A stretch of 64,000 nt of DNA from Candidatus Heimdallarchaeota archaeon (GCA_018238155.1 JABCTZ010000026.1:32001-96000); one strand, 5' to 3'. Shown: positions 8,945 through 14,990, counted from the first letter of the stretch. The notes: generated by a model not told the origin, from the sequence alone. Program-made: numbers and translations.

Positions 8945-9766
8945 TCAGGTATTAGAGTGAGGTTCAATATTTAGCTTTGAATCTTCAAAATAATTGATAT
9001 CAAAAGCATCAAGATTATCCAAAATTTTAACTGTTTTTTCTCTAAAGTACTGAGGAACGTTGCTTCCAATACTAAATTCATTGACCAATTTTTTATATGG
9101 TTCAAAAAATTCAACAAGCAAATCAATAATTTCATTCCTATTTGTATTATCTTCTAAAACTTGATAGATTAGTTTTGACTTTCCTAAAGAGATATAGAAC
9201 AAATATTTGTAAAATTTCTTAAAGGAAATTTTTTCTTCGTCTATTTTCTTTAAATCAAATAAAATTTTCAGCAGATATCCCGGTAATAGACTTGTTGTTT
9301 CAACTTTCTTAACGATTTCAAAATGGTTCTGAATGGAAAGATATGCTCTTGTATTTAATTTTTTATATTGATTGAGTTCCTTAGTAATTTTTTCTTCTGT
9401 CCCCAGGTTGTTTAACAATTCTTTGTAACCTATTTTTCTAATCAAAAAGAACTCAAAAATTGCTATGACAATTAAGACAATTATTAATGGTAAAATCAAA
9501 ATTGGTATTATAGAATCTTTTTCGAAAATTCCTGCTTGGTTCTGAACAATAATTAAAATGGAAATAAAAACTATTAGAACCGCAGATACTGCTAATGATA
9601 TTCTATTGAAAATCTTCTTTGTTTCTTTAATTTCTGCACGGCAGATCTTTTCTTGGAATCTCCATGAGAATTCTTGCTTGATAATTATTTCGTTAAGAAA
9701 TGCTCGTGCTACCTCTGCATTTTCTTTCAGAATTTTCTGATCGATCATTTTATGTAAGCCCACCAT
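8945..9766 (-). CDS. Hypothetical 2-TM membrane protein with helical cytoplasmic region; resembles the N-terminal half of 9812..11329
   Basis: 273-aa ORF with two hydrophobic helices near the N-terminus; co-oriented 45 nt downstream of the ZnF-RING gene. Confidence 0.65.
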   Translation of the reverse strand: MVGLHKMIDQKILKENAEVARAFLNEIIIKQEFSWRFQEKICRAEIKETKKIFNRISLAVSAVLIVFISILIIVQNQAGIFEKDSIIPILILPLIIVLIVIAIFEFFLIRKIGYKELLNNLGTEEKITKELNQYKKLNTRAYLSIQNHFEIVKKVETTSLLPGYLLKILFDLKKIDEEKISFKKFYKYLFYISLGKSKLIYQVLEDNTNRNEIIDLLVEFFEPYKKLVNEFSIGSNVPQYFREKTVKILDNLDAFDINYFEDSKLNIEPHSNT

Positions 9767-9811
9767 ATTACAGATATTGAATATACAAACTGATTTTTAA
9801 ATCAACGTGCT

Positions 9812-11329
9812 TCATCGATTTTTCTTCATTGACTCCATTACAGTTACTTCTAGTTGCTCTTCAATTTCTTTTTTACAATAGGGACACAAGTCACTTTTTT
9901 CCAACCACATAGAGAAGTGTTCAGCATGACCGAAACCCTCACAATGAGGGCAAATACTTACCTCTGTGCCTAATCCAATGCTATTCAAACAAACGAAGCA
10001 ATATGGAAGTTCGTTTTTGCACTTTTTGCAATATTGTAGAATAGACGAATTTTTAGTTTTGCAATAAGGGCATTTTATTGTTATACTTCCCCCTTTTCTT
10101 TTGGATAAAAACTGTTTAGCAGAAAATAATTGTTTGAAATAGTCAGTTCTAATTTTCTCATATTCATCTTTAGACATTTGTTCTTTTTCTTCATCAAGTA
10201 TTTCAAGAGTAGAATTTAATACTTCAATTTTTACTTCGAGCTCCTTATCTGTTAATAATTTCATTTTAATATTTTCTGCAGGGAGATTTTTTTGAATGAA
10301 TTTCATAGTTGTATAATACGTACCAGCTCTTGTTCGAATCTCTATCACGTCCCCATCAAAAGCTGAAATTGCTGAAAGTAGTTTATTCTTATCAATATTG
10401 AGCTTTTTATGTGGTATTTTAACAGTAGATTTTGCAATTGGTTTAGCATCCAATTGCTTCTTCATTTTACTAGTTAATTCTTCAACTTTTATAGCCAATT
10501 CTTTATTTGAGTTTATTTTCTGTAAAGTTTCAATTATATCATTCACATTTTTGATTGACTTTTGCATTTTTCTAAAATCAACCCTAAAGAACATATCAAA
10601 TTTATTTTGGGAGACAATTGATAGGCTTGAATCTATATCTGTCAATACATTCAACAATTCAGTTAATGTTTTTTCATCTTTAATCAAAACATCCAGATTT
10701 AAAGATTCTAAAATAAATGTTCCAGCTAGTATCATCAATACTAATCTCTTCATTTGATCTTTAGCAATGGGATCTTTATCCTGTAAGAGAATTTCAATAG
10801 CAATTTCATTTACCAATACTGCAGCAATTCTATTTCTGAATTCATTTGAAATTGTAATTTCAATTGCTTTTTTAATTAGTTGATCGGAAGCGTTTCTTTC
10901 GTCTAACTCATTATCTATTTGTTTTCTAATCTCGGCTGCTTCTATTTCAAGCTCTTTCTTCTTCTTTTTCAAAGCTCGTTTTGCTAAAAAACCAACATTG
11001 AAATTCGATAAAAGATAAAATGACACTCCAAAGGCAAGAAATAGACAAGCCAAAATAACTATGATTATGATTTCATCACCCAGATGACTTAGTAACCCAG
11101 CAAATACAAAACTAGCCAAAATAGAAGCTACAAATATAATTCCAGTAATTTTCCACATTTTCTCTGAAATTTTCTTTCTCTGTTCGTCCAATGCTACACT
11201 TTCATACATAGATTCTTTGCTTTTTTTGAAGAGGGATATTTCAACTAATGGTAAGGCTTTTTTTATACATTCTGAAATTATTTGCTGATTGTTTAGGTTA
11301 TTGTCTATTTCTGCTACTTGTGCACTCAT
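9812..11329 (-). CDS. 2-TM coiled-coil protein with wHTH-like segment and C-terminal zinc finger + RING-like domain (putative E3 ligase/scaffold)
   Basis: Two TM helices; C-terminus CPYC-x10-CKKC-x6-CFVC-x12-CPHC-x4-H-x2-H-x3-W-x6-CPYC; ATG at 11329 overlaps the upstream TAA (TAATG). Confidence 0.8.
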   Translation of the reverse strand: MSAQVAEIDNNLNNQQIISECIKKALPLVEISLFKKSKESMYESVALDEQRKKISEKMWKITGIIFVASILASFVFAGLLSHLGDEIIIIVILACLFLAFGVSFYLLSNFNVGFLAKRALKKKKKELEIEAAEIRKQIDNELDERNASDQLIKKAIEITISNEFRNRIAAVLVNEIAIEILLQDKDPIAKDQMKRLVLMILAGTFILESLNLDVLIKDEKTLTELLNVLTDIDSSLSIVSQNKFDMFFRVDFRKMQKSIKNVNDIIETLQKINSNKELAIKVEELTSKMKKQLDAKPIAKSTVKIPHKKLNIDKNKLLSAISAFDGDVIEIRTRAGTYYTTMKFIQKNLPAENIKMKLLTDKELEVKIEVLNSTLEILDEEKEQMSKDEYEKIRTDYFKQLFSAKQFLSKRKGGSITIKCPYCKTKNSSILQYCKKCKNELPYCFVCLNSIGLGTEVSICPHCEGFGHAEHFSMWLEKSDLCPYCKKEIEEQLEVTVMESMKKNR

Positions 11330-13336: not shown

Positions 13337-13619
13337 TGATCATCCCTTGTAAAATTAGTTCTAGATAGCCCTTAAGATTAATTATTTCTTTTTGAGCTAT
13401 AACATAAATTAGTAGCTATTAAATAAAAAGTATTTCATTATATTATTGCTACTTGTTCTTTGATTTTTAGCAAAGAAATTGGTATTTTCCAATCATTTTC
13501 TATATAACCATTCAAAAAATATATATCTAGTAAAAACGAATGCAGTAGTATCAATGATTAATCTTTCAAAACAATTGTAAAAACAATTGAGATTAAGAAG
13601 TGAAAAAAAAACTCGTGAA

Positions 13620-14990
13620 ATGACAAACCCTTATTTGGAGGAGAAAAAACTGTCGCCGAATGATGAGAAAGAATTTAAAAAGTTACTAATTATTGGATCT
13701 ATAGTTGGGTTAGTAGGTGCAATTGCACTTATATTAGGAATGATTTTACAGTTTAATGTCTTTAATACCGTAGAAATCAATGTTTTTGGCATTGTCGTTG
13801 TTGCATTTGCTTTCGGCATATTTTTAATCTGTCTAATAACGCTTCTCGGAACATTATCTGTAGGATTTAGTGTTAATGACGAACGACCAGGTTTGTTAGC
13901 TTTAGTTTTGTTCATATTTGCACCAACAGTTGTTTTAACAAATTTTAGTACTCCTTTGTATTATTTGCTAGAAATAGGTAATAGAGAGCTAGATCTTGGT
14001 TTTGTTGGATTTGGATTTTATTTGGTTTATTTAGGTGCCGGATTATTCCTTATTTCATTCATATTCCATGTTTGGACTTTCCTCTGGAAAAATAGGTTGG
14101 GCGATTCTGGTGTTAATGTCGCAGATAGCTCTAATGAAATACCTATGATCAAAATCTTAAGGATAATTAACAGTATCTTGATTGTTATTGCTAGTATTGG
14201 GATAATTTTTGGTATGATATTACCAGCTTATTCATCAATTGAAAATCCCAATGTTACAGGATTCTTCATGTATGAAAACGGTACACATGTCGATCTAGAA
14301 GCTATGTTCTTTTTAGCTTTGCTCTTTAGTATAGTAGTAACAGCAATTATTGTTATGCTTAGTAATTTTGGAGTTGTTAAATCCACTAGAAGCGAAATAC
14401 CATTACTAATACTTCTCGGAATTACTTTTTTAGTTCCAGGTTACATTCCAAAAGGAAACCCGTCCGGTGTTTGGACTTCTCCATTCTTTGAATTATTAAT
14501 CACAATGCGTGAAATTGTATATCAAGATACAGAACTTAGCTTCACTACTATGGGTTGGGTTCTAATAGTAGGAATATTGGTTCTACTCCTAACGGTATTC
14601 ATTGCATCGATTACATTCTTCTTTAGCAAATCAGCAACAAAAGCTGTTAAAAGGGTTAAATCTTCTGTGAAGAAGGTTAAGAAAGGAAAATTCCCTTCAA
14701 GTCCTCCATCCGCTAATGTTGGAGGATTGGCATCACAATTGGCTAGTTCAGGTCCTCCTTCAGCTGCAACAGGTCCTCCCTCGGCTGCATCAGGTCCGCC
14801 ATCTGCTTTAGGACAAGATCCAACAGTTTCATCCTCTCCGCCCACACCACCAAGCTTTTTAGCTTCATCAGGTTCACCTCCAAGTGCAGCAGCAACAGAA
14901 AAACCAACATGCCCATTCTGTGGTAAATCATTAAGATTTATCGATGAATACCAAAGATGGTACTGTGACAGTTGCGCACAATACGTATAA
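13620..14990 (+). CDS. Multi-pass (~8 TM) membrane protein with Pro/Ser-rich linker and C-terminal zinc ribbon
   Basis: Hydrophobic helices, (S/T)GPPSAA repeats, terminal CPFCGKSLRFIDEYQRWYCDSCAQYV; ATG at 13620 preferred to TTG at 13587. Confidence 0.8.
   Translation: MTNPYLEEKKLSPNDEKEFKKLLIIGSIVGLVGAIALILGMILQFNVFNTVEINVFGIVVVAFAFGIFLICLITLLGTLSVGFSVNDERPGLLALVLFIFAPTVVLTNFSTPLYYLLEIGNRELDLGFVGFGFYLVYLGAGLFLISFIFHVWTFLWKNRLGDSGVNVADSSNEIPMIKILRIINSILIVIASIGIIFGMILPAYSSIENPNVTGFFMYENGTHVDLEAMFFLALLFSIVVTAIIVMLSNFGVVKSTRSEIPLLILLGITFLVPGYIPKGNPSGVWTSPFFELLITMREIVYQDTELSFTTMGWVLIVGILVLLLTVFIASITFFFSKSATKAVKRVKSSVKKVKKGKFPSSPPSANVGGLASQLASSGPPSAATGPPSAASGPPSALGQDPTVSSSPPTPPSFLASSGSPPSAAATEKPTCPFCGKSLRFIDEYQRWYCDSCAQYV
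14748..14810 (+). repeat. Three tandem 21-bp coding repeats (SGPPSAA/TGPPSAA/SGPPSAL)
   Basis: tcaggtcctccttcagctgca / acaggtcctccctcggctgca / tcaggtccgccatctgcttta. Confidence 0.85.

What the first reader, a model, noticed from the sequence alone, without database searches (positions are those of the whole stretch)
8945..14990. Candidate proto-GATOR-like membrane signalling neighbourhood
Within 6 kb are an NPRL2/uDENN-like longin protein (GATOR1-type fold), two GATOR2-like ZnF-RING proteins on the same strand, and four predicted membrane proteins, next to an amino-acid racemase and a phosphatase. Inference: an archaeal nutrient-sensing or membrane-ubiquitylation module foreshadowing GATOR1/GATOR2. 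Caveats: no Rag-like GTPase, roadblock protein or ubiquitin gene lies in this window, a small opposite-strand gene separates the longin gene from the operon, and both domain types may be expanded in Asgard genomes, so adjacency could be chance.
Basis: inference. Interest (0 to 1): 0.75.

Follow-up and report, generated by a model that had tools for sequence, protein, structure and literature searches.

The report
Longin and RING genes: neighbours, not module
In this Heimdall-type Asgard archaeon a GTPase-regulator-like longin protein and a pair of GATOR2/IFT-A-like zinc-finger-RING proteins really do lie side by side, but in related genomes the two are unlinked, so they are separate units and not an ancestral GATOR nutrient-sensing module.

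Summary
The 260-aa protein (LG, 12554-13336) folds as a FLCN/SMCR8/NPRL2-type longin domain plus a gelsolin-like domain. Proteins A (11329-12036) and B (9812-11329) end in a zinc-ribbon+RING module that matches IFT144/WDR19 and the GATOR2 subunits by sequence profile and by fold. Four membrane proteins, a phosphatase and a racemase are present as described.

The proposed functional link is not supported.
- A and B form a translationally coupled two-gene cassette. It sits in a variable slot of a collinear backbone (M-LG-sTM-[slot]-C-phosphatases-racemase).
- The slot is empty in the eight loci without A-B that could be read, and it holds an unrelated gene in one more.
- A-B occurs in four unrelated contexts without LG, including two genomes of the same genus that carry LG on another contig.
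- All A-B-lacking loci fall in one clade, so the linkage reflects a single evolutionary event.
- The genome holds 27 RING paralogs and 4 LG paralogs. None of the other three LG paralogs is near a RING gene. Chance adjacency has a probability of about 0.06-0.58.

Best reading: three independent units. LG is a small-GTPase regulator; one paralog is flanked by GTPase genes, and a related longin is fused to a RagA-like GTPase. A-B is a membrane-anchored heteromeric RING-H2 ligase. The membrane genes belong to the backbone.

This scan had noted the same stretch in this genome before, but not on other DNA.

The parts
12554..13336 (-). LG: 260-aa protein. It has a Lys-rich disordered N-terminus, a GAP-type longin domain (~20-165) with invariant D32-x-G34-P35 and invariant R100/R106, and a gelsolin-like domain (167-260). 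It is monocistronic.
   Evidence: AF2 model, pLDDT 82.9. Fold matches. The alignment of 31 orthologues has 70% mean column identity. Paralogue alignment.
11329..12036 (-). A: soluble 235-aa protein with a winged helix (8-72), a helical hairpin (95-151), a zinc ribbon (C155, C158, C169, C172) and a RING-H2-like finger (C179, C182, C195, C198, H203, H206, C217, C220).
   Evidence: AF2 model, pLDDT 84.2. Fold matches. Alignment of 24 homologues. Profile matches to PDB sequences.
9812..11329 (-). B: membrane-anchored paralogue of A, 505 aa from the ATG at 11329 (the open frame runs up to 11410). It has two N-terminal TM helices and a helical middle part. Its last ~225 aa are an A-like module ending in ZnF-RING. 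The start overlaps A's stop (TAATG), with GGAGG about 10 nt upstream.
   Evidence: B residues 307-520 align with A residues 5-229 at 26% identity, E 3.8e-15. The RING profile matches residues 445-519. Junction sequence. TM helices. B immediately follows A in all nine loci where the gene after A can be read, and in the first bases of a tenth, L005.
8945..9766 (-). C: 273-aa protein with 2 TM helices. It belongs to the conserved backbone, not to the A-B cassette. Relatives carry an extra C-terminal nucleotidyltransferase-like domain.
   Evidence: C is present where A-B is absent and absent where A-B stands alone. No similarity to B was detected. The L027 and L032 homologues are 423 and 418 aa and hit PF10706, weakly in L032.
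12210..12512 (+). sTM: 100-aa protein with 2 TM helices, tail-to-tail with LG. It is conserved next to LG in all loci that could be read.
   Evidence: 47-83% identity across loci. TM helices.
13587..14990 (+). M: 467-aa protein with about 9 TM helices, a Pro/Ser-rich tail and a C-terminal zinc ribbon. It is transcribed divergently from LG.
   Evidence: TM helices. 41-57% identical orthologues lie next to LG in most loci. The zinc-ribbon motif is shared with five other proteins of the genome.
7261..8593 (-). Context: histidine phosphatase (7985-8593) and Asp/Glu racemase (7261-8004). Both are part of the same collinear backbone.
   Evidence: Pfam E 5.6e-46 and 3.6e-38. Collinear in L027, L029, L032 and L037.

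Best explanation
The 6-kb region is a mosaic of three independent units that are neighbours by descent, not one machine.

(1) LG is a stand-alone gene for a regulator of a small Arf/Rag/Ras-family GTPase that is encoded elsewhere. It is most likely a GAP subunit. Its longin domain has the catalytic-pocket features of FLCN/SMCR8/NPRL2: a GP motif before strand 2 and a conserved arginine in the strand 4-5 segment. It is fused to a gelsolin-like domain that could dock it to actin or to another partner.

(2) A and B are a translationally coupled, relocatable two-gene cassette. A is soluble. B is its membrane-anchored paralogue. Each carries a winged helix, a helical hairpin and a C-terminal zinc-ribbon+RING-H2 module. 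They most likely pair through the helical and Zn modules to form a membrane-associated heteromeric RING ligase that uses the ubiquitin and E2 enzymes encoded elsewhere in the genome.

(3) M, sTM and C are membrane proteins of the conserved local backbone. Their function is unknown.

Shown here: the folds, the motifs, the cassette structure, the loss of linkage in relatives, and the family expansions. Inferred: GAP activity, E3 activity and A-B pairing.
For: Independence of the units:
- The backbone FtsX...M-LG-sTM-[slot]-C-HisP-HisP-racemase is collinear across the genus. The slot holds A-B in the window, G079/L005, L027/L028, L032 and L036. It is empty in L029/L030, L007, L008, L009, L011, L012, L013 and L037, and holds a NosD-like gene on the P0030 contig.
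- A-B occurs without LG, M, sTM or C in L033, L034 and L035 and in G075:C60.
- G081 and G075 carry LG and A-B on different contigs.
- In the LG tree, all A-B-lacking loci fall in one clade (support 98/99).
- The other three LG paralogues have no RING neighbour.

LG as a GTPase regulator:
- The fold is closest to GAP-type longins.
- G34-P35 is invariant in 31 orthologues and 4 paralogues. R100 and R106 are invariant in the orthologues. The GP motif plus an arginine finger defines GAP longins, including a Heimdall class (PMC12290439).
- Paralogue LG4 lies between an Arf-like and a Ras-like GTPase gene on the same strand.
- A related longin domain is fused to a Gtr1/RagA GTPase domain in P0093.

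A-B as a RING pair:
- A's stop and B's start overlap as TAATG.
- B's C-terminal half is homologous to the whole of A.
- The RING part matches RNF126, EL5, RNF4, RLIM and Arkadia at E 1e-7 to 1e-5.
- V181, W210 and P218 are invariant and K221 nearly so. These sit at the positions that contact E2~Ub in canonical RINGs (my knowledge of RING-E2 structures, not tested here).
- Ubiquitin and three E2-like genes are present in the genome.
Against: - LG-sTM-A-B stayed adjacent across LG divergence down to about 60% identity (L027, L032, L036). With the paralogue root, the A-B-bearing loci form a basal grade, so the linkage may be ancestral in the genus and lost once. That leaves some room for a functional tie.
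- No GTPase partner for LG1 is identified. The nearest GTPase gene is about 24 kb away.
- The arginine finger position could not be verified by residue-level superposition.
- The RING ligand spacing (C-x2-C-x4-H-x2-H) departs from the canonical C-x-H-x2-H-x2-C. The closest whole-module relatives (IFT144, GATOR2 CTDs) act as structural junctions, not as proven ligases.
- A's winged helix is of the TrmB/MarR type and could bind DNA.
Confidence: 0.62

Rival explanations
1. LG (GATOR1-like), A/B (GATOR2-like) and the membrane proteins act together as one nutrient-sensing or membrane-ubiquitylation module that foreshadows GATOR.
For: - Both domain types are correctly identified and do resemble GATOR1 and GATOR2 parts.
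- The adjacency persists in five loci that could be read, at 60-80% LG identity.
- The genes sit next to an amino-acid racemase.
Against: - The linkage is absent in most species of the genus, and A-B stands elsewhere in two of them.
- It traces to one gain or loss event.
- The whole flank, including FtsX and lipid genes, is equally collinear, so the conservation is not specific to these genes.
- LG is on its own transcript.
- No Rag GTPase, DEPDC5-like, roadblock or ubiquitin gene is nearby.
- The LG paralogues are never next to RING genes.
- The adjacency is compatible with chance.
Confidence: 0.08
2. A-B is a membrane-tethered transcription switch. A is a TrmB/MarR-type winged-helix DNA-binding regulator. 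The membrane paralogue B holds it at the membrane through the helical and Zn modules until a signal releases it. In this reading the Zn module is a dimerisation domain, not a ligase.
For: - A's residues 5-72 match winged-helix DNA binders at Z 10-11.
- 17 of 24 homologues hit TrmB and 16 hit DUF7342.
- JGI names some homologues as MarR-family regulators.
- B contains a full A-like module on a membrane anchor.
Against: - The recognition helix is weakly conserved and poor in basic residues.
- The strongest conservation lies in the RING, at residues typical of E2 contact.
- Winged helices also serve as protein-binding modules in ligase complexes (weak hit to the UFL1 winged helix).
Confidence: 0.18
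3. The ZnF-RING modules of A and B are purely architectural junctions, as in the GATOR2 and IFT-A C-terminal domains. They assemble a membrane-bound scaffold without any ligase activity.
For: - The best whole-module matches are IFT144/WDR19 (E 4.7e-8; Z 9.8; 30% identity) and the GATOR2 subunits.
- The same module caps WD40, HEAT and TPR proteins in this genome.
- Tandem RING gene pairs recur in the genome.
Against: - Unlike WDR19 in the printed alignment, the archaeal module keeps both histidines, the tryptophan and the C-P-x-C-K signature shared with active RING-H2 ligases.
- The genome encodes ubiquitin and E2 enzymes.
Confidence: 0.2

Closest known systems
GP-motif, arginine-finger longin domains of GAP complexes (FLCN, SMCR8, NPRL2) and the Heimdallarchaeial 'FLCN/SMCR8-type' longins described in PMC12290439; NPRL2-like longins of Asgard archaea (Liu et al., bioRxiv 10.1101/2020.10.19.343400)
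   Same: - Longin fold, with best structural matches to this group (Z 9.8-14.9).
- Invariant GP immediately before strand 2.
- Invariant arginines in the strand 4-5 segment.
- Genomic and fusion links of family members to Arf/Ras/Rag GTPases.
   Different: - No DENN or NPRL2-type C-terminal domain; a gelsolin-like domain follows instead.
- No sequence-level match to any solved longin.
- No adjacent GTPase or partner longin for LG1.
- GAP activity is untested.
C-terminal ZnF-RING domains of GATOR2 subunits (WDR24, WDR59, MIOS) and of IFT-A subunit IFT144/WDR19
   Same: - Two-part zinc ribbon + RING at the extreme C-terminus, preceded by helices.
- Profile matches at E 4.7e-8 (WDR19) and 5e-5 to 2e-4 (GATOR2).
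- Structural match at Z 9.8, rmsd 3.0 over 83 residues, 30% identity.
   Different: - A and B lack the beta-propeller and alpha-solenoid. They have a winged helix and, in B, a membrane anchor.
- They keep the classical RING-H2 ligase residues that WDR19 has lost.
Classical RING-H2 E3 ligases (RNF126, EL5, RNF4, RLIM, Arkadia, synoviolin)
   Same: - Eight Zn ligands.
- Hydrophobic residue between ligands 1 and 2.
- Trp in the helix.
- C-P-x-C followed by a basic residue.
- Profile E 7.5e-8 to 1e-4 over the RING part.
   Different: - C4H2C2 ligand order with x4 between ligands 4 and 5.
- Pfam zf-RING_2 score below the curated cut-off.
- An extra zinc ribbon lies directly upstream.
Asgard gelsolins (ProGel, 2DGel; Akil et al. 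2020, cited in PMC13734099)
   Same: The LG C-domain has the single-gelsolin-domain fold: Z 10.7 to ProGel, and 8.6 and 8.0 to Heimdall and Loki 2DGel.
   Different: - No Pfam gelsolin hit.
- Fused behind a longin domain.
- Actin binding is unknown.

Membership tests
GAP-type longin (FLCN/SMCR8/NPRL2 class) | Longin fold (strand-strand-helix-strand-strand-strand-helix) | tested here: met
   The secondary-structure order fits in the model. Z 14.9 to 8yqg_B, 11.8 to Lst4, 11.6 to 7o2w_A, 11.2 to FLCN 6nzd_H, 9.9 to 8fw5_C.
GAP-type longin (FLCN/SMCR8/NPRL2 class) | GP motif at the end of the loop before strand 2 (PMC12290439) | tested here: met
   G34-P35 is invariant in 31 orthologues and in all four paralogues. 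Strand 2 starts at residue 34 in the model.
GAP-type longin (FLCN/SMCR8/NPRL2 class) | Catalytic arginine finger next to the GP motif | tested here: inconclusive
   R100 and R106 are invariant and lie between strands 4 and 5. No residue-level superposition on NPRL2, FLCN or SMCR8 could be made with these tools.
GAP-type longin (FLCN/SMCR8/NPRL2 class) | C-terminal DENN or NPRL2-specific domain | tested here: not met
   Residues 167-260 are gelsolin-like (Z 10.7 to 7c2f_D). Alignments to NPRL2, FLCN and SMCR8 stop at about residue 165-182.
GAP-type longin (FLCN/SMCR8/NPRL2 class) | GAP activity towards a Rag/Arf GTPase, in a heterodimer with a second longin | not testable with these tools
   Indirect only. 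LG4 is flanked by GTPase genes. P0093 is a longin-RagA fusion. LG2 keeps GP but lacks both arginines, as non-catalytic partners do.
GATOR1/GATOR2-like gene module | Linkage of longin and ZnF-RING genes conserved in independent genomic contexts | tested here: not met
   The slot is empty in the eight A-B-lacking loci that could be read. A-B occurs without LG in four loci. The linkage traces to one gain or loss event.
GATOR1/GATOR2-like gene module | Rag-type GTPase, DEPDC5-like or roadblock partner nearby | tested here: not met
   None of the 26 GTPase hits and 10 roadblock hits in the genome lies in the region. The nearest GTPase is at C20:19902-20423, about 24 kb from LG. DEPDC5 itself was not searched.
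GATOR2/IFT-A C-terminal ZnF-RING domain | Zinc ribbon plus RING at the extreme C-terminus, with sequence and fold similarity | tested here: met
   Profile A3: WDR19 4.7e-8, MIOS 5e-5, WDR24 1e-4, WDR59 2e-4. Z 9.8 to 8fh3_C residues 1250-1334. The module is C-terminal in all paralogues with the full two-part module.
GATOR2/IFT-A C-terminal ZnF-RING domain | N-terminal beta-propeller and alpha-solenoid (protocoatomer architecture) | tested here: not met
   A has a winged helix plus a helical hairpin. B has TM helices plus an A-like module. Paralogues elsewhere carry WD40, HEAT or TPR.
RING-H2 E3 ubiquitin ligase | Eight cross-brace Zn ligands and Pfam RING model above its cut-off | tested here: inconclusive
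   All eight ligands are invariant. zf-RING_2 scores 23 bits (A) and 19.6 bits (B) against a cut-off of 27.3. 21 of 24 homologues hit it at E<=0.01.
RING-H2 E3 ubiquitin ligase | Cognate ubiquitin and E2 in the organism; ligase activity | tested here: inconclusive
   One ubiquitin and three UQ_con genes are present in the genome, but none is near a RING gene. Activity is not testable here.
Gelsolin domain | Gelsolin fold; Pfam PF00626; actin binding | tested here: inconclusive
   The fold is met (Z 8-10.7 to many gelsolin domains). There is no Pfam hit at E<=1. Actin binding is not testable.

The most novel reading that the evidence does not exclude
The C-terminal zinc-ribbon+RING module of A and B has 14 full copies in this genome, some of them on WD40, HEAT and TPR proteins. 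It could be the archaeal forerunner of the junction domains that hold GATOR2, IFT-A and related protocoatomer cages together. The LG family could be archaeal longin GAPs for Rag/Arf-like GTPases that are coupled to the cytoskeleton through a gelsolin-like domain. In the window's lineage, the two would then meet on one membrane platform (B, M, sTM, C) as a primitive GATOR-like switch.
Probability: 0.1. Interest if true: 0.8.

Novelty: new variant of a known kind. Interest (0 to 1): 0.38.

Why it matters
- It removes a tempting but unsupported proto-GATOR operon from the list of Asgard-eukaryote links.
- It leaves two concrete, testable objects. The first is a small, conserved longin-gelsolin family with the catalytic-pocket motifs of eukaryotic longin GAPs and with genomic ties to small GTPases. 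This family is a candidate for the first biochemical test of an archaeal longin GAP.
- The second is a ZnF-RING module with sequence-level similarity to IFT144 and GATOR2 C-termini. In the same genome it is attached to beta-propellers and solenoids, which bears on where the protocoatomer junction domain came from.

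Tried and rejected
- Complex prediction of LG with A, both as alignments, scored 0.00 in both runs. The verdict was 'no answer', so it counts neither for nor against binding.
- Sequence searches of LG (single sequence and profile) against PDB sequences found nothing useful. The arginine finger could therefore not be placed by alignment.
- Pfam finds nothing in LG, C or M above threshold. The Pfam Longin model rings nowhere in the genome, including the controls, so it is uninformative.
- The Atlas feature search returned only an unnamed Heimdall cluster for LG. 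For M it returned nothing reliable (best score 0.86).
- I tested whether M paralogues accompany LG paralogues. They do not; the multi-TM neighbours of LG2-4 are unrelated proteins.
No similarity was detected by BLASTP, and C stays in place when A-B is absent.
- I looked for a remnant of the nucleotidyltransferase-like domain of C's relatives in the 351-bp gap 8594-8944. None was detected.
- No RNA sequencing run was listed for the stretch, so transcript structure and co-expression could not be examined.
- The sigma-70 promoter scan gave no more sites than shuffles, and it is not meaningful for an archaeon.
- Literature searches for Asgard+GATOR2+RING returned no paper. The other searches found no description of this cassette or of a longin-gelsolin fusion.

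Full report
**What is there.** The window is contig C20:32001-96000 of a 4.08-Mb assembly, 91% complete. Relatives of its proteins are labelled Heimdallarchaeota or Asgard group. The genes between 7.2 and 18.1 kb are:
- racemase, 7261-8004, minus strand
- histidine phosphatase, 7985-8593, minus
- C, 8945-9766, minus
- B, 9812-11410 as an open frame, minus
- A, 11329-12036, minus
- sTM, 12210-12512, plus
- LG, 12554-13336, minus
- M, 13587-14990, plus
- an FtsX-type permease, 15310-18123, minus

Hydropathy predicts 2 TM helices in C, 2-3 in B, 2 in sTM and about 9 in M.

**The longin protein.**
- LG has 31 close relatives (54-87% identity, 70% mean column identity), none of them with a Pfam domain.
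- The AF2 model (pLDDT 82.9) has two domains.
- Residues ~20-165 have the longin order of strands and helices. They match the Lokiarchaeota Roadblock-Longin longin domain best (8yqg_B: Z 14.9, rmsd 2.5, 138 residues). Next come Lst4 (11.8), C9orf72-SMCR8 (11.6), FLCN (11.2) and GATOR1/SEA chains (9.9, 9.8). These rank ahead of SNARE, adaptor and TRAPP longins (Z 8-9). Foldseek gives the same order.
- Residues 167-260 match single gelsolin domains: Thorarchaeota ProGel at Z 10.7 with 85 of 88 residues, and adseverin, gelsolin and villin at Z 8-10.
- A 2025 survey defined a GP motif just before strand 2, plus an arginine finger, as the signature of longins with GAP activity. It found both in a class of Heimdallarchaeial longins (PMC12290439).
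- LG has an invariant D32-x-G34-P35 exactly there, and invariant R100 and R106 between strands 4 and 5.
- The genome has three paralogues with the same two-domain layout. All keep D-x-G-P. LG3 and LG4 keep both arginines. LG2 has lost both. This recalls catalytic versus non-catalytic partners in eukaryotic longin GAP dimers, which is inference.
- LG4 lies between an Arf-family gene (321 aa) and a Ras-family gene (173 aa) on the same strand.
- Among 1.84 billion representatives only 97 match the LG profile. One of them, P0093, joins an LG-type longin to a Gtr1/RagA GTPase domain.
- So the 'GATOR1-type longin' call is right at the level of the domain. The DENN or NPRL2-type C-terminal domain is replaced by a gelsolin-like one.

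**The RING proteins.**
- The model of A (pLDDT 84.2) shows a winged helix (Z about 11 to Z-alpha and ArsR/MarR-type domains), a helical hairpin, a zinc ribbon and a RING.
- All twelve Zn ligands are invariant in 24 homologues.
- A profile of the module matches WDR19/IFT144 over its whole length (E 4.7e-8). It also matches MIOS, WDR24 and WDR59 (5e-5 to 2e-4). Over the RING half it matches RNF126, EL5, RNF4, RLIM and Arkadia (7.5e-8 to 5e-5).
- By structure, residues 152-235 match IFT-A 8fh3_C residues 1250-1334: Z 9.8, rmsd 3.0, 30% identity.
- 'GATOR2-like ZnF-RING' is therefore correct, with IFT144 as the nearest relative.
- Unlike WDR19 in the printed alignment, the archaeal module keeps both histidines, an invariant Val between ligands 1 and 2, an invariant Trp, and C-P-x-C-K. 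In canonical RINGs these positions contact E2~ubiquitin (my knowledge, not tested here).
- The genome encodes one ubiquitin and three E2-like proteins, none of them nearby.
- B's last ~225 residues are homologous to the whole of A (26% identity, E 3.8e-15).
- B's probable ATG overlaps A's TAA as TAATG, with GGAGG upstream.

**Is the neighbourhood a unit?** I read the gene order around LG orthologues in metagenome contigs and in genomes of the same genus.
- The flank from FtsX through M, LG, sTM, C, two phosphatases and the racemase is collinear throughout. Conservation of LG next to anything here is therefore not specific.
- A-B sits in one slot, between sTM and C. It is present in the window, G079, L027/L028, L032 and L036.
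- The slot is empty in G072, G074, G075, G076, G078, G081, L029/L030 and L037. It holds a NosD-like beta-helix gene on the P0030 contig.
- Conversely, A followed at once by B stands in four unrelated contexts without LG, M, sTM or C: L033 and L035 (one assembly), L034 and G075:C60.
- L034 is identical to G081:C53. G081 and G075 therefore each carry LG and A-B on different contigs.
- In an LG tree, every A-B-lacking locus falls in one clade (support 98/99) and every A-B-bearing locus lies outside it. The linkage thus reflects a single gain or loss. With the long-branch paralogue root, loss looks somewhat more likely, but the root is unsafe.
- Within the genome there are 26 RING paralogues besides A. 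Fourteen, counting A and B, have the full ZnF-RING, always at the C-terminus. None lies near LG2-4.
- Random placement puts a RING within two genes of a longin-like gene in 6-58% of trials, depending on how the families are counted.
- LG lies between two opposite-strand genes, so it cannot share a transcript with A-B.

**Conclusion.** The interpretation as one proto-GATOR module is not supported by synteny, by paralogue context or by gene content. The region is best read as three units:
- LG, a longin-gelsolin regulator of a small GTPase encoded elsewhere
- A-B, a relocatable cassette for a membrane-anchored pair of ZnF-RING-H2 proteins, most likely a heteromeric ligase, less likely a scaffold junction or a tethered transcription factor
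- M, sTM and C, backbone membrane proteins of unknown role

An interaction test of LG with A gave no verdict. No RNA data were listed.

**Known or new.** NPRL2-like and FLCN/SMCR8-type longins, and RING ligases, are established Asgard 'eukaryotic signature' proteins (bioRxiv 10.1101/2020.10.19.343400; PMC12290439; PMC13734099). In the searchable literature I found no description of a longin-gelsolin fusion, of the paired winged-helix ZnF-RING cassette, or of its similarity to IFT144 and GATOR2 C-termini. Subscription papers are not covered. I rate these as new variants of known kinds.

Noticed in passing
Own genome, outside the window: G000:C27:7583-9154 (L042); C41:69480-71543 (L041); C17:38546-39769 (L045); C21:28847-31732 (L039): The same C-terminal Zn module caps other kinds of protein. 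The full ZnF-RING caps a WD40 beta-propeller protein (523 aa, module at 435-506), a HEAT-repeat+PCI protein (687 aa) and an LVIVD-repeat protein (961 aa). On a TPR protein (407 aa) only the RING part matches. Propeller or solenoid plus a terminal ZnF-RING recalls GATOR2, IFT-A and HOPS subunits.
   Followed up: partly
G000:C7:132484-135033 (L004): LG paralogue LG4 lies in a same-strand row between two GTPase genes: Arf-family GTPase (321 aa), LG4 (267 aa), Ras-family GTPase (173 aa). This is the clearest genomic tie of the longin-gelsolin family to small GTPases.
   Followed up: partly
P0093 (597 aa, from the representative library): An LG-type longin domain (residues 5-148) is fused to a Gtr1/RagA GTPase domain (286-473, E 4.6e-34). 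Many other weak LG-profile hits of about 300 aa carry the longin at residues ~100-260, as in the solved Roadblock-Longin protein 8yqg.
   Followed up: partly
Window 14910-14990 (C-terminus of M); G000:C41:38320-39561; C6:7722-9383; C20:170273-172447; C13:108287-109036; C19:113518-114267: M ends in a short zinc ribbon, C-P-x-C-G...F-I-x2-Y-x-R-W-Y-C-x2-C. It recurs in five other proteins of the genome. Two of them (C41, C6) coincide with small-GTPase domain hits. It may be a shared docking module.
   Followed up: partly
Window 8594-9766 compared with L027:11453-12724 and L032:11429-12685: C is 273 aa here. Its homologues in L027 and L032 are 423 and 418 aa, with an added C-terminal nucleotidyltransferase-like domain (Pfam Aminoglyc_resit, weak in L032). 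No remnant of it was found in the 351-bp gap downstream of C.
   Followed up: partly
Junction between sTM and C: window 9767-12209; L009, L029, L037; P0030 contig: This one intergenic slot holds A-B, a NosD-like beta-helix gene, or nothing in different relatives. In L036 a TPR gene is inserted between M and LG. The backbone tolerates insertions at fixed points.
   Followed up: yes
G000:C41:21986-22747 (LG2): Paralogue LG2 keeps the D-x-G-P motif but has Glu and Leu in place of R100 and R106. This is the pattern expected of a non-catalytic longin partner. LG2-level relatives occur in two other families of the class.
   Followed up: no
Window 5842-7005: A T4 Rnl1-type RNA ligase gene (PF09511, E 1.4e-18) lies beyond the racemase. 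In L027, L029 and L037 that position holds a peptidase S8 gene or an MmeI-type restriction-modification gene instead.
   Followed up: no
G078:C44, G074:C75, G081:C35, G073:C4 (L007-L010): In several assemblies of the genus, the contig breaks a few hundred bases from LG, inside the M gene. The low-complexity Pro/Ser-rich part of M or local variation may hamper assembly.
   Followed up: no
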